Of a DNA stretch of 64,000 nt, positions 20 to 41,066 are shown one piece after another. Numbering within the stretch: position 1 is the stretch's first letter; every line of letters begins with the position of its first letter. Both the position numbers and the translations under genes were made by a program. This DNA comes from Eledone cirrhosa (taxonomy: Eukaryota), in NCBI GenBank assembly GCA_964016885.1, contig OZ024740.1:98084001-98148000 (forward strand), in the 5' to 3' direction. The notes beneath the pieces are model-generated. The model was not told where the DNA came from. It did no database searches and saw nothing but the letters and a program-made list of their open reading frames with translations.

Positions 20-1197
20 AGTAGTAGCACATCAGTTAGTTCACCATTCCGAGAACAATTGTTTCACCTTAGCGGATCTTCAGCTCGGACTGGTCGTGGT
101 TAAACGGAACAGGAAGCGAATGGTATAAGGGAGATAACTGCGAAAGTCCGGAAAAGATGTTCCAGTTGATTAGAAGATTAGAATGTTGTTGTTATTCAAT
201 CCTGAGCTTTCTAGTTGTGCAAGAGGTGTTTCCAGACGTGTGGACAACGTGGGAAGATTTCATTTCTTGAATTTAGGCAATCCTTAGAATATTTATCCTT
301 TCTTCAATACACAATCCACAATATGAATTGCCTCTTGCGTATGGCTTGGACTTAGTGATAGCTTTCCATTGAATGGAGTAGTCTATATCTCAGTCCTTGA
401 GCTACCATACAAGCCTCACGAGTTTTGTGGATGATCGTTTGTCCGGGTACCTAAAGGTCGACTGATGGTTCAGGAAGCGTTTGTCCGGGTACCTAAAGGT
501 CGACTGATGGTTCAGGAAGCGTTCCTGAAATTGGCTCTCCGCCATACCCACATAGGATTTGACCTCCTGTGGTTAATTTGGTCGGTTGGAGGTGACCACA
601 GCTTCATAAACTACAGCGGGTGTGTTGCATTGCTGTTGTGTTGAAGGGGACACGCTTCTGGCTTTCGGCTAGAGTATCCTGGTGGGGTGACACTCTTAGG
701 ACTCTTGGTGATGTGGGCCTTCATATTCTTAGTGCAAGAGAACCCAAGTTTTAATATGTGTCTGTTACCTATGAGAAAGTTTCTAAGAGGCTAAAATTGT
801 TTTTCCTACATTAGTTTTCACGTTGGGTGAGAAGGGAGGAGAGAACCAGATAGTTTGTCTATTATTACGATTTATTTTCTTGTTGTTGTTGTTAGTGGGG
901 GAGGAAGTAATTGGTTGTGAGAAGCCGATGTTAGTTAACGCCATGTTATAGTAGAGTGCTGCTCTGTCAAAGATAGCTTTATTAGAGGCGAGGTTAGAGA
1001 TTGTAGTACTGATATTATTTACGAAGTTTCTAAAAACAGTGGGAGGTTGGCATGAGCCCTTGTGTGTGTAATTACGTTTTCCGTTTAGCTTATGAAAGGG
1101 TCTGAAGGTGTGTGTCCGAAGGTCTAAATTAATGCCTAAGAAATCTACACTTGAGAGTTTGGTAGCTACTGTTACCCTAAGTCCTACATCATTAAAA
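20..1197 (-). mobile_element. Penelope-like element (Naiad-like, family A), 5'-truncated and decayed: RT C-terminus, GIY-YIG, 3' end with hammerhead
   Basis: ORF 783..1259(-) reads VDFLGINLDL..FRPFHK..NISTTISNLASNKAIFD..YYNMAL..IWFSPPFSPNVKTNVGK (PLE RT thumb/linker). 200..755 is the reverse complement of the GIY-YIG segment at 1190..1720. Begins at a (TA)n tract. Confidence 0.88.
48..89 (-). ncRNA. Type I minimal hammerhead ribozyme (family A)
   Basis: Minus strand: TCCGAG-CTGAAGA-tccgctaaggt-GAAA-caattg-TT-CTCGGA; 6-bp stem I, palindromic stem III. Confidence 0.8.
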
Positions 1198-2025
1198 CTA
1201 GGGTTCTCCTGCGCTAAGAATATGAAGGCCCACATCACCAACCGTCCTAAGAGCAGCACCCCACCAGGATGCTCATGCCGAAATCCAGAAGCTTGTCCCC
1301 TTCAACAGCAATGCAACATACCCGCTGTAGTTTATGAAGCTGCGGTCACTTCCAACCGACCAAATCCACCACAGGAGGTCAAATCCTATGTGGGTATGGC
1401 GGAGGGCCGATTTAAGGAACGCTTCCTGAACAATCAGTCGACCTTTAGGTACCCGGACAAACTATCATCCACGAAACTCGCGAGCCATGTATGATCGCTC
1501 AAGGATTCAGATATAGACTACTCCATTCAATGGAAAGCCATGACTAAGTCCAAGCAATACGCAAGGGGCAATCCGTCTTGTGGATTGTGTATTGATGAAC
1601 GGATGAATATTCTGAAGAAATTAGGCAATAGCGATTGCCTAAATTCAAGAAATGAAATCACCTCACGTTGCCTACATGTCTAGAAACATCTATTGCATAA
1701 CTACACAGCTCCAGATTGAATAACAACAACATTCTAATCTTGTAAACAACTCGAACATCTTTTCCGGACTTTCGCAGTTATATCCCTTATACCTTTCGCC
1801 CGTGGGTTTGTATCGCTTGGGTGAAGTAACCGTTTCTGTGCATGCACCTTCATACGGTTTTACTTCCTGTTCCGTTTAACCATGACCAGTCCGAGCTGAA
1901 GATTCGCTAAGGTGAAACAATTGTTTCCCGGTATGGTGAACTAACTGTTGTGTTACTACTTCCACCAAAAATGTTCCATGGACTGAGTGCTCTACCGCTA
2001 CGGATATTACCTTCTAATGATCTAC
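1191..2025 (+). mobile_element. Inverted pseudo-LTR copy of the same Penelope-like element (GIY-YIG and 3' end)
   Basis: ORF 1108..1494(+) has CSCRNPEACPLQQQC..VVYEA..KSYVGMAEGRFKERF; the downstream frame gives CGLCIDE..LNSRNEITSRCLH with stops. Inverted repeat of 20..755; ends at (CT)n/(TA)n. Confidence 0.88.
1890..1931 (+). ncRNA. Hammerhead ribozyme motif (family A), stems partly mutated
   Basis: tccgag-CTGAAGA-ttcgctaaggt-GAAA-caattg-TT-tcccgg. Confidence 0.65.
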
Positions 2026-2178
2026 CTCTCTCTCTCTCTCTCTCTCTCTCTCTCTCTCTCTCTCTCTCTCTCTCTCTTTCTCTCTCTCTCTCTCTCTCTC
2101 TCTCTCTCTCTATATATATATATATATATATATATATATAGAGAGAGAGAGAGAGAATATATATATATATATATATAT
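2025..2178. repeat. Compound microsatellite (CT)n(TA)n(GA)n(TA)n
   Basis: Direct reading. Confidence 0.95.
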
Positions 2179-2963
2179 GATAAAATGAACGACCCATCGG
2201 GTCACGTTCATTTAAGAATTTGTTTTTTTTAAATCATGTACACTTAAAAATAATTTTTCAATAATTAAAATGTATACAGACATGTATATAATGTAAAATA
2301 TAATTGGAAGGCCCATATATATATATATGTGTGTGTATGTGTGTGTGTGTGTGTGTGTGGGGGGGTGTTGCTTCTCTGACCTATATACACTAGTCACATG
2401 CACATATACACACACACTTAGAAACCCTTCCTATTTAACAGAAAATATTCGCTACAACATCCTGTCTGTCCTAACACAAGTTATATGTTACCTATGGCTT
2501 AATATTCAGTCACCAAATTCCAGCTAGATACAGTAATGCTGTATTTGATTATTTGAAGTCACCTGTTATAATTTCATTCAATAATACAACCAGCTCTCTC
2601 TCTATCTATTTATCTTTCTACCCTGTCCCCTTATCTCTATGTCTCTCTTTCAATCTACTCTCTCACAACCACTATCTCTTTCCCTATCTCTGTTTGTAAA
2701 GGTACCTGGAGAAACCCTGTATCCCCGGTACCTGGAAAAACCCTGTATCCCTGGAACCTGTACTCCGATTTATGCGAAACATGTTTTATTCCATTTGTAT
2801 TCCCATTTCAGGAGCAACTTCCTTTCAAAGAATTGTTTTACCATGCACTGTAGTCGTATATAGTAGTATATAGATTGGCTTGGTTTTATGAATGTAATTT
2901 TTATGTGTTTGGAATCCGACTGTCTTTTCCAGGAGATGCTTTGTTTTCTGACTGCATTATTTA

Positions 2964-38386: not shown

Positions 38387-40092
38387 AAAAAAAATCAATC
38401 TGTAAACGCAAAAGTAAATATTTCGAAAAATGTTGCAACTGAAGGAAGACAGGAAGACGATACTTTGGTTCGTGGAGACGTTTCCTGGCAAAGAACCGAA
38501 AAAAAAACGAAGATAATACATCATTATTTAGAGCGTAGAGAACAATTACAAAACCACGTTTATGGTATAAATGAAGTCGTAGACTAATATTCTATTAGGT
38601 GATTCGTGGACACGTTCCCTGGCAATCAACGGAAAACACGAAGATAATACGTCATTATGTGGAGCGTTGAGAACAATTACGCGCACAGACAAATCCACGT
38701 TTATGGTATAACTGAAGTCGTCGACTAAAATTCTATTTAGGAAACCGAACGATTCTCGACTTCAGAGTTAAGAAAATGTAAATAAATTACAGAGGTTATT
38801 GAGATCAACAATAATTAAATATATACATGCACGCATCCATATACGTACATACACATGCATACGCGAAAACACCCGCCATCGGTATGCAAATACATGAAAG
38901 TACACAAAAAACACGCGCACACATACAAAAACCCACGCAACGCCTGTACCCGCACACATACGAACGTATACACCAAATACACAAAACATATATAATATAT
39001 ATATATATATGTGTGTGTGTGTGTGTGTGTTTGTGCGCGCGCGTATACATATGATTATATAAACGTATATAAATATACACAACATAAATACGTATATAAG
39101 GCGCGCACACACATAACTATATGTAAAAAACACATATGTTCGCGAAACAACGTCAACCAGAACACAAAGTACACATATACACACACCGTACATACGTACA
39201 AACCCGCATACACACACAAACGCTAAACTCACGTATACATATAACCATATACACATGTACCAGTACATATAATGTAATATATACGCCTATAACAAGTACA
39301 AGCAAATATACGTACGAGAAAGTATACGTAACTTCACAAAACATACATGTAATATATACTTACCTATACAAATAAGTAATGGTATAAACATAAATTATAC
39401 TTAGCTACCACATCAAGACGTAAATTATCCGCGTTGGGGTATAATGCGGGGATGTAATACAGGAAAGTTTTGTGCAATTTATGTTTACAAGCCGAAATTG
39501 CCTCAGATTTTTTGTTTAAGATGTGGTCATTGGCGTGGTGGTTTGTACCGTGATGACGGTCTTTTGACCATGACAAAGTGCGGCCCACGCGCTGTTTTTT
39601 GTGTACGTGCCTGTATTTTCATACCCACGGCGGGTGTTTTCGCGTATGCATGCGTATGTACGTATATGGATGCGTGCATGTATATATTTAATTATGTTGA
39701 TCTAAATATCCTCTGTAATTTATTTACATTATTCCTATCTCTGAAGCCGAGAATCTTCGGTTTCCTAAATAGAATTTTAGTCGACGCCTTCTGTTATACC
39801 ATAAACGTGGTTTTGTCTTTGCGCGTAATTGTTCTCAACGCTCCACCTAATGACGTATTATCTTCGTGTTTTCCGTTCATTGCCAGGGAACGTCTCCACG
39901 AACCAACTAATAGAATATTAGTCTACGACTTCATTTATACCATAAACGTGGTTTTGTAATTGTTCTCAACGCTCCAAATAATGACGTATTATCTTTGTTT
40001 TTTCCACGAACCAAAGTACCGTCTTACTGTCTTCCTTCGGTTGCAACTTTTTTCGAAATATTTACTTCTGCGTTTACAGATTGAATTTTTTT

Positions 40093-40143
40093 AGTTTCAG
40101 AAGAGCCCTTTAAGGGTGAAAGCAGCGATTATTTGCTTAAACT
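40093..40143 (+). ncRNA. Hammerhead-like motif, CAGAAGA core variant (family C)
   Basis: AGTTT-CAGAAGA-gccc-tttaa-gggt-GAAA-gca-gcgattatt-tgc-TT-AAACT. Confidence 0.6.
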
Positions 40144-40680
40144 TTAATCTGTTATTTTAATATATATATATATATATATTTAATTTATTCGGTCCTCAAT
40201 GTTGCCATTGACTGACCAATGGTCAAAAATACAGATACAATATAGACACAAACACATATATGTAGTCTATCAAAGTTCTTTTGTACATATATATATATAA
40301 AAGACACAGAAGCGAAAAGCGAAAACCAGCCAAACAGTGAGTGTGTTCTGTTATTAATTCTGGCAGTATTACACAAATATGACCCTCCCCAAGTATATAT
40401 ATATATATATATATATATATATATATATATATAAATATATATATATATATACAAATATATATATATATATTTAAAGTGCCCAGTCAACACATTGAAGTGG
40501 TCATTTTGGTGCCACAATAAAAACACCTAGTCCACACTCTAAATAATGTAGTTAGTGTTAGGAAGGGCATCTGCCATAGCAACCAAGCCAGAAACAATTA
40601 TGTATGAGAAAGTCATGATTATCTAATCTGACCTTTCATCCTAGCATGGAAAAATGGACGTTAAACTAATATATGTATAT

Positions 40681-41066
40681 ATAGTGAAATAAAATTACAA
40701 GGATGATTGGTTACTCCTTCATTACGTTTATTGGTGATGCGTGTTTCGCCACTGATCAGCTCAAGGTTCGATCTGTATCGATCTTACCGGACCCTGTAAT
40801 CCGCAGCACATCAGACCCCTTGTAACATTACAAGGGGTCCGACGAGCCACGGTTTACTGAGTCGGGTTAGATCGATACAGATCGAACCTTGAACTGATCA
40901 GTGGCGAAACGCGCGTCACCAATCAATAAATGTGATGAAGGAGTAACCAATCGTCCTTTCACTATATTACACTCTGTCTAGCTATACACCTCGATACTGA
41001 AGTGAATGTAAACATCGAGTGGTCACCCAGGTGAACCTACAGTAACTCCAAGTTACACTCCCTGGA
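40681..41066. mobile_element. Palindromic PLE-like remnant (family E) with two back-to-back hammerhead motifs
   Basis: Arms about 40700..40825 and 40828..40957 around cccttgtaa-ca-ttacaaggg. Plus arm: ggt-CCGACGA-gccac...gtggc-GAAA-cgcgcg-TC-acc then AATAAA; the minus arm has CTGATGT. Confidence 0.7.

What the first reader, a model, noticed from the sequence alone, without database searches (positions are those of the whole stretch)
20..41066. Five unrelated asymmetric palindromic insertions in (TA)n, most carrying hammerhead motifs
Seen: 20..2025, 11831..12025, 35058..35312, 38225..40160 and 40681..41066 are unrelated in sequence but share one architecture: two inverted arms pointing outward, one arm lacking the last 40-100 bp of the other, with microsatellite (mostly TA) on both sides. 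Four have clear hammerhead elements in the arms. Known: Penelope-like elements form inverted pseudo-LTRs and carry hammerheads. Inference: the short ones are either extreme PLE truncations or non-autonomous ribozyme-bearing fold-back elements (retrozyme-like) with a shared TA-targeted integration mechanism.
Basis: partly seen in the sequence, partly recalled or inferred. Interest (0 to 1): 0.75.

Follow-up and report, generated by a model that had tools for sequence, protein, structure and literature searches.

The report
Head-to-head Penelope ends in TA repeats
The five lopsided mirror-image inserts are real, but each is a one-off landing scar of a different abundant Penelope-type jumping gene rather than a self-copying hairpin element; their sister copies likely record where the element's RNA starts and, in one family, where its ribozyme cuts.

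Summary
All five asymmetric inverted repeats in (TA)n exist. Each belongs to its own multi-copy family whose long copies run into a Penelope-like (PLE) ORF: four have Hydra-clade motifs, one looks Neptune-like. Across copies the two outer ends are fixed (56-100 nt apart: the 'tail') while the centre differs (34 of 34 E2 centres distinct), so palindromes are built anew at each insertion and do not spread as units. This layout is published, and Frangieh 2024 explains the tail by two RT start sites. Hammerheads: only E1 has intact canonical cores here; the fifth family has one too, just outside this copy. Beyond print (my searches): short copies pile up at one site preceded by an untemplated G (E4: G 67, A 26 of 100, control G 5, A 30 of 42), likely the RNA cap; the nearest E2 control failed. 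E2 copies also pile up at the predicted ribozyme cut (19 of 32); E1 copies do not. The scan noted the same layout in this and other genomes, and the extra G in other genomes. No RNA data.

The parts
20..1185 (-). E1 tail-less arm: Hydra-type PLE 3' end with RT-thumb/linker/endonuclease remnant; ends at the second start site (-64)
   Evidence: tblastn to P0001, E 4e-32; I3 -61/-64 in 10 of 17 copies
1186..1961 (+). E1 tailed arm: CxCX5C linker and GIY-YIG remnant (2 stops), 3' UTR, hammerhead
   Evidence: translation; (E 4e-31)
1891..1931 (+). E1 minimal type-I hammerhead, core CTGAAGA at 1896 (mirror copy at about 48-90 on the - strand)
   Evidence: sequence; activity untested
1962..2025 (+). 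E1 tail, 64 nt, followed by (CT)n
11831..11889 (-). E2 tail-less arm (-78 to about -137)
11894..11947 (+). E2 tailed arm: 3' half of hammerhead only (GAAA box, stem III; predicted cut between 11927 and 11928)
11948..12025 (+). E2 tail, 78 nt
   Evidence: I3 -78 in 38 of 52 copies
35052..35156 (-). E3 tail-less arm (Neptune-like family)
35157..35310 (+). E3 tailed arm, starting at the first base after the family's predicted hammerhead cut; tail partly deleted
38225..38311 (-). E4 tail, 87 nt; in 355 exact genomic matches it continues into the 5' UTR, and in the fetched ones into the ORF start
38312..39535 (-). E4 tailed arm: endonuclease C-terminus, long 3' UTR with 130-bp repeats, CAGAAGA-core hammerhead near 38340-38385
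39533..39590 (+). E4 junction insert: short piece of the family's RT region (YRDD motif)
   Evidence: read by eye; same peptide in L226
39589..40167 (+). E4 tail-less arm, hammerhead core at 40098
40683..40825 (-). E5 tail-less arm, decayed hammerhead core
40823..40966 (+). E5 tailed arm, decayed core (family CTGACGA) with long stem II; 14-nt deletion near 40960
40967..41066 (+). E5 tail, 100 nt
   Evidence: I3 -100 in 9 of 15 copies

Best explanation
Each of the five is a separate insertion of two 3' ends of a Penelope-like retrotransposon joined head to head inside a microsatellite, likely made when both nicked (TA)n strands primed reverse transcription at two fixed sites on the element's RNA. 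Shown: five families, each tied to a PLE ORF; two fixed outer ends 56-100 nt apart; a variable centre; both arms usually carry the same subfamily variants. Inferred: the tail is the distance between the two RT start sites; the inner site ends in TAT/ATA/CTA and could pair with the TA primer; the two cDNAs stop independently and are end-joined (microhomology or filler bases). Inferred: most short copies are run-offs at the capped 5' end of the RNA, which lies at the 5' edge of the hammerhead (E4, probably E1 and E5) or inside its loop II (E2); since tail and start sites also sit just before the ORF start (shown for E4), the ordinary full-length mRNA could be the template. Inferred for E2 only: a second class was copied from hammerhead-cleaved RNA. 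My odds: PLE remnants 0.97, two primers 0.7, cap run-off 0.7, E2 cleavage footprint 0.6.
For: ORF links: E1; E2; E3; E4; E5. Fixed inner start: 10 of 17, 38 of 52, 6 of 11, 12 of 15, 9 of 15 copies. Centres 34 of 34 distinct; of these 34 automatic filler, 11 microhomology, 1 blunt, some miscalled. Tail-less arm longer by >10 nt in 21 copies, shorter in 18, within 10 nt in 65; fold-back of the tailed cDNA cannot give 'longer'. Untemplated G (hand counts): E4 -162 G 67, A 26, C 7 of the first 100 of 215 against G 5, A 30, T 7 of all 42 at -156, Fisher p 4e-9; E2 -139 G 75, A 15, C 10 of the first 100 of 190; background G 24%. None of 42 TA-fused E2 loci passes -143. E2 cut: 19 of 32 loci at -98/-99. 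Two hetero-family junctions: L219, L107 (by eye). PMC11167929: both strands cut and extended, two RT starts = tail; PMC2377424: promoter within the pLTR; PMC11702581: extra G marks cap copying in L1.
Against: E2 control at -134 also shows G excess (G 34, A 5, T 43 of 82; p 0.79): either a minor start or a general tendency to add a base; a second control at -105 had 0 G of 7; E1 only 5 G of 10. E1 shows no pile-up at its predicted cut (3 of 53 loci). Arms share variants (E1 51 agree, 3 disagree; shuffled 46% disagree), which fits fold-back or later gene conversion as well as one RNA used twice; E3 and E4 were weaker (26 and 27 of 500 shuffles) and E2 uninformative. Central deletions after insertion could mimic unequal arms. 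E3 5' ends do not fit one start. PMC11167929 found no primer-template homology in Anolis and no RNA reads ending at the cut. Hetero-family junctions are 1 of 210 in the automatic scan. The Inr-like motifs were picked after the fact.
Confidence: 0.72

Rival explanations
1. Single priming plus fold-back (self-priming): one cDNA folds back, copies itself up to the inner TA-like site and is integrated as a hairpin; later central deletions or conversion blur the arms (close to the self-priming idea in PMC3846280).
For: Arms share subfamily variants; 65 of 104 copies have arms within 10 nt of each other; 11 of 34 E2 centres show microhomology.
Against: Tail-less arm longer in 21 of 104, including young E2 copies whose tailed arm stops at the predicted cut while the other runs on to -138 (L188, L190); a solo tail-less arm at window 7755-7823; hetero-family junctions; both strands extended in vitro (PMC11167929).
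Confidence: 0.2
2. Short copies are a non-autonomous, retrozyme- or SINE-like class that re-amplifies from short master copies with their own internal promoter.
For: 61 of 70 E2 copies are short; sharp 5' limit with extra G; pLTR promoter is internal in D. virilis (PMC2377424), so short copies could be transcribed.
Against: No shared centre (34 of 34 distinct); short and long copies share haplotypes in E2 and E4; most copies are single units in (TA)n, not tandem arrays; E2 short copies lack half the ribozyme.
Confidence: 0.12
3. Short copies are ordinary 5' truncations caused by RT stalling at the folded or protein-bound hammerhead; the extra G is a non-templated RT addition.
For: E4 -162 is also the first base of stem I; G excess at E2 -134; A/T runs at several E2 junctions.
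Against: No G excess at E4 -156 or E2 -105 (0 of 7); the E2 limit is near the loop apex, not at a stem entry; none of 37 E4 arms starts at -161.
Confidence: 0.2
4. MITEs or assembly artefacts.
For: Outer ends fixed; inverted repeats; TA flanks.
Against: One-sided tail, variable centre, continuity with RT/GIY-YIG ORFs, arms only 79-93% identical, presence in short-read contigs.
Confidence: 0.01

Closest known systems
Insertion units of endonuclease-positive PLEs: pLTR, adjacent inverted 5'-truncated copy, one-sided 30-40 bp tail (PMC8557442, passages and section 11; PMC3846280, passages and Discussion)
   Same: Head-to-head inverted ends, tail on one side, hammerhead in the pLTR, microsatellite targets.
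   Different: Tails are 56-100 nt; most sampled copies are ORF-less stubs (61 of 70 in E2); 5' ends cluster instead of varying freely.
Hydra clade PLEs (PMC8557442 section 11)
   Same: E1, E4, E5: CxCX5C linker; E1, E2, E4, E5: CxxC..E..N..CxH endonuclease without CCHH; E4: RWR near the N-terminus and YRDD; (TA)n targets.
   Different: Assigned by motifs and 37-41% identity to unnamed proteins with RW(K/R) and DK(T/S), not by a tree; variant ribozyme cores in E2 and E4.
Neptune/Nematis PLEs (PMC8557442 passages)
   Same: E3: CX3CxxC linker, cysteines before YIG and two histidines, YLDD RT (Pfam RVT_1 E 6e-6, GIY-YIG E 0.047, both below curated cut-offs).
   Different: Neptune versus Nematis not resolved.
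Poseidon PAc of Anolis in vitro (PMC11167929, first two of four parts read)
   Same: Two internal RT start sites bounding the tail; both target strands cut and extended; start sites lie past the ribozyme near the ORF start.
   Different: There: no homology to the primer, cleavage dispensable, no RNA ends at the cut. Here: inner sites end in TA-like bases and E2 copies pile up at the predicted cut.
Non-LTR retrozymes (10.64898/2026.07.22.740005, first of five parts read; PMC7229834 listing only)
   Same: Short non-coding PLE-derived units with type-I hammerheads.
   Different: Retrozymes are head-to-tail tandems with complete ribozymes in each unit; these are head-to-head, often with half or no ribozyme, and with unique centres.
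L1 twin priming and cap-derived extra G (PMC11702581, passages)
   Same: Second target strand primes internally; extra G at run-off 5' ends.
   Different: L1's inverted pieces abut with little overlap; here both primers copy the same stretch.

Membership tests
EN+ Penelope-like elements | RT plus C-terminal GIY-YIG ORF contiguous with the repeat end | tested here: met
   E1; E3; E4; E5 (linker and EN); E2 endonuclease C-terminus only.
EN+ Penelope-like elements | Inverted 5'-truncated copy and one-sided tail | tested here: met
   tails longer than the published 30-40 bp
EN+ Penelope-like elements | Partial tandem: pLTR and tail continue into the ORF start | tested here: met
   E4 only: 355 exact matches; N-terminal ORF hit downstream in 20 of 25 fetched loci. 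Not shown for the other four.
EN+ Penelope-like elements | Type-I hammerhead in the pLTR | tested here: met
   By motif and stem pairing in all five families; Rfam negative; MFE folds did not give the hammerhead fold; cleavage not tested.
Hydra clade | CxCX5C linker | tested here: met
   E1, E4, E5; not reached in E2
Hydra clade | No CCHH; CxxC and CxH around conserved E and N | tested here: met
   E1, E2, E4, E5 translations
Hydra clade | RWK and DKT motifs | tested here: inconclusive
   RWR read by eye in E4 loci; RW(K/R) and DK(T/S) in homologs P0001-P0005; not read in E1, E2, E5 copies
Hydra clade | Placement in the RT phylogeny | not tested
   No named reference sequences were available; supplementary files of PMC8557442 were not opened
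Neptune/Nematis clade (E3) | CX2-5CxxC linker and CCHH endonuclease | tested here: met
   clade between the two not resolved
Non-LTR retrozymes | Head-to-tail tandem units, each with a complete hammerhead | tested here: not met
   single head-to-head units; occasional TA-separated neighbours only
Non-LTR retrozymes | Circular RNA | not testable with these tools
   no RNA run listed
MITE / foldback DNA transposon | Symmetric terminal inverted repeats, constant interior | tested here: not met
   one-sided tail, variable centre

The most novel reading that the evidence does not exclude
The thousands of stubs are a genome-encoded read-out of the PLE cycle: one RNP primes both nicked TA strands on the same RNA at two TA-complementary sites, runs off at the mRNA cap about 140-160 nt away, and in family E2 also copies RNA already cut by a variant-core hammerhead. 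That would map the PLE start site and give genomic evidence of in vivo hammerhead cleavage, which the one in vitro study could not see in RNA-seq, and would suggest a route to regenerate pLTRs.
Probability: 0.45. Interest if true: 0.65.

Novelty: new member of a known kind. Interest (0 to 1): 0.42.

Why it matters
The elements are ordinary in kind and can be mis-annotated as MITEs, miRNA hairpins or retrozymes. Their value is as data on open points of PLE biology named in print: how inverted structures form (PMC8557442), how pLTRs are regenerated (PMC2377424) and whether the hammerhead cuts in vivo (PMC11167929). Five unrelated families in one window give exact, testable positions for RT starts, RNA start and cut.

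Tried and rejected
Rfam scan: 116 weak matches, none a hammerhead. First descriptor scan missed the E1 cores because of strict stem rules. Search with the whole E2 palindrome suggested a fixed unit; rejected as selection bias (versus 19, 46). Exact E5 pattern hit only the window copy. First E2 mapping used a divergent reference and gave false spikes at -131/-141; one search had wrong rows for E1 with its second reference; one search replaces both, but misses long inverted arms, including those of the window's own E1 and E4. 'Two RNAs from random loci' rejected as the rule. MFE folds did not show the hammerhead fold, and one of the six stretches (L084) was mis-chosen and covers the tail. Pfam gave no hit above cut-off for any fragment. 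RNA: no RNA holder listed. Laid contigs gave too few joints to map centres. An intact-core count across the genome could not be run; local counts were used. Sequence look-up in earlier findings was blank. Paper searches listed nothing, by title or abstract start, on cap-G or cut-site pile-ups in PLE copies; subscription journals and supplements were not covered. PMC13282606 (passages) gave only family counts; the host species was not determined.
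Full report
Names and coordinates. E1 = 20-2025, E2 = 11831-12025, E3 = 35052-35310, E4 = 38225-40167, E5 = 40681-41066. Negative numbers count bases upstream of the family's tail end on the sense strand. The window lies in a 3.0-Gb genome.

1. Observation. All five are inverted repeats with a one-sided extension, set in microsatellite, and unrelated to each other at DNA level. Arms are 79-93% identical. A self-comparison of the window found no further palindrome of this size apart from simple repeats and one unexamined pair near 48.4/50.2 kb. 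The ribozyme claim needs correction: intact canonical cores in E1 only, a CAGAAGA core in E4, decayed cores in E5, the 3' half only in E2, none in E3. Rfam found no hammerhead.

2. Each is a family. First-look candidates: 2796 (E2), 1140 (E5), 2450 (E3), 724 (E4), 634 (E1); one E2 35-mer has 7258 exact hits. I sampled by the tail, so as not to select on the centre: for E2 the first 30 and 40 further pattern hits on contig C1 (two listed places already seen were skipped); for the others the 30 best tail matches, the window copy included. L174 was dropped as the same insertion as L165.

3. All five lead into PLE ORFs. E1 itself carries a linker and GIY-YIG remnant on both arms. E2 long copies reach an endonuclease C-terminus. 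E4 has the endonuclease end in the window, linker and RT in L226, and its tail continues into a 5' UTR and an ORF start 44 nt later (N-terminal hit downstream in 20 of 25 loci). E5 copies reach linker and endonuclease about 1.2 kb upstream of the tail end. These four match the motif description of the Hydra clade in PMC8557442 (section 11 read). E3 long copies reach a YLDD RT, a CX3CxxC linker and a CCHH-type endonuclease, as described for Neptune/Nematis. No tree was built.

4. Fixed outside, variable inside. An adjoining inverted arm was called in 17 of 29 (E1), 52 of 70 (E2), 11 of 30 (E3), 15 of 30 (E4) and 15 of 30 (E5) copies; the script misses long ones. Its outer end is fixed: -61/-64 in 10, -78 in 38, -56 in 6, -87 in 12, -100 in 9. 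The template at these sites ends in CTT or CTA (E1), TAT (E2, E3, E4) or ATA (E5), mostly compatible with a TA primer. All 34 E2 centres that the script extracted are different, and short and long copies share haplotypes. The palindromes therefore do not replicate as units. PMC11167929 (first two of four parts) shows in vitro that a PLE cuts and extends both strands and that the tail lies between two RT start sites, which accounts for the asymmetry.

5. One primer or two. Among 104 copies with a tail-less arm, it is longer than the tailed arm by more than 10 nt in 21, shorter in 18, similar in 65. Fold-back of the tailed cDNA cannot make it longer unless the centre was later deleted, which I cannot exclude. 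Arms agree at subfamily sites far more than shuffled pairs in E1 (51 to 3; 0 of 500 shuffles) and E5 (44 to 6; 3 of 500), weakly in E3 and E4 (26 and 27 of 500), and E2 is uninformative: both arms usually come from one source. One of 210 head-to-head junctions joined two of the five families (L219, 3-nt microhomology); L107 looks similar by eye. The window's E4 junction holds a short piece of the RT region (read), pointing to a template jump or templated filler.

6. Where short copies stop. E2: 61 of 70 copies are short; none of them passes -143 on either arm (up to -145 with chance matches), and none of 42 TA-fused loci passes -143 (hand count); summed contig depth rises more than tenfold across this zone in two runs. 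The long-copy ribozyme has its core at -184 and its cut at -98, so this limit lies in loop II. E4 copies peak at -162, the first base of stem I. Base between TAT and the first A (hand counts): E4 -162: G 67, A 26, C 7 (first 100 of 215); control -156: G 5, A 30, T 7 (all 42); p 4e-9. E2 -139: G 75, A 15, C 10 (first 100 of 190); control -134: G 34, A 5, T 43 (all 82), which does not discriminate (p 0.79); control -105: 0 G of 7. E1 -137: G 5, T 4, A 1. Background G is 24%. An extra G marks cap copying in L1 (PMC11702581, passages) and the Penelope promoter lies in the pLTR (PMC2377424, passages and Discussion). The sites read TTAGTC, TTAGTT, CCAGTC, initiator-like (consensus recalled, chosen after the fact). 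I read these copies as cap run-offs; E4 supports this well, E2 ambiguously, E3 not at all.

7. Ribozyme footprint. In the first 100 rows (51 loci after merging overlaps and one tandem), 19 start at the anchor edge, where TA microhomology applies. Of the other 32, 13 start at -98, 4 at -98 or -99, 2 at -99, 11 across -92 to -97 and 2 further upstream (upstream is under-sampled by the pattern). Binomial p 2e-11 with 17 of 32. The E2 core is CTGAGAA in 10 and TTGAGAA in 6 arms; the U3-A8 variant is described in PMC4209133 (first two of four parts). E1 shows no such peak (3 of 53 loci). The window's E3 copy starts at its family's predicted cut, a single case. PMC11167929 found no RNA reads at the cut in Anolis.

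8. Verdict. Known kind of structure, five new families, no new class of element. The mechanistic footprints are inferred from DNA alone and have one failed control. Earlier notes of this scan reached the same reading on other DNA and, seen after my own tests, the extra G in other genomes; they are unchecked and not independent evidence. Supplementary files of the papers were not opened and may bear on clade assignment and on known ribozyme variants.

Noticed in passing
window 27143-29542 (-) and 25600-25660 (-): Degraded near-complete Hydra-type PLE ORF (tblastn E 6e-54) and an exact-core hammerhead at 25656, whose end faces an E4-family copy across a short TA run.
   Followed up: partly
window 24023-25454 (+): Second E4-family copy with tail but no inverted arm, interrupted near 24474-24999.
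   Followed up: partly
window 7755-7823 (-): Solo tail-less E1-family arm beside (TA)n: product of the inner start site alone.
   Followed up: partly
window 44372-44686 (-): Another Hydra-type endonuclease fragment.
   Followed up: no
window 9842-11404, 14490-16169, 45553-46786: Three copies of a repeat, about 94% identical, in both orientations; not identified.
   Followed up: no
window 48409-48502 and 50173-50264: Inverted pair, 90% identical, 1.7 kb apart.
   Followed up: no
window 1962-2025, 11948-12025, 40967-41066; L264 1512-1545: A short GAG-Y-R-CT motif occurs in the tails of E1, E2, E5 and just past the E4 tail; possibly a protein-binding signal (seen by eye).
   Followed up: no
window 38340-38385 and 40093-40135: E4 hammerhead core is CAGAAGA (U4 to A) in 47 of 49 arms; activity unknown.
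   Followed up: partly
L080 1160-1500: A tRNA-like SINE forms its own head-to-head pair directly before an E5 tail; related SINE pieces sit in E2 3' UTRs.
   Followed up: no
L035, L043, L200, L218 (E2 junctions): Runs of A or T at the junction next to the template's TTT at -142 to -140, suggesting RT stuttering near the template end.
   Followed up: no
L003, L008, L020, L030, L046, L079: Several PLE families and subfamilies share the same (TA)n arrays.
   Followed up: no
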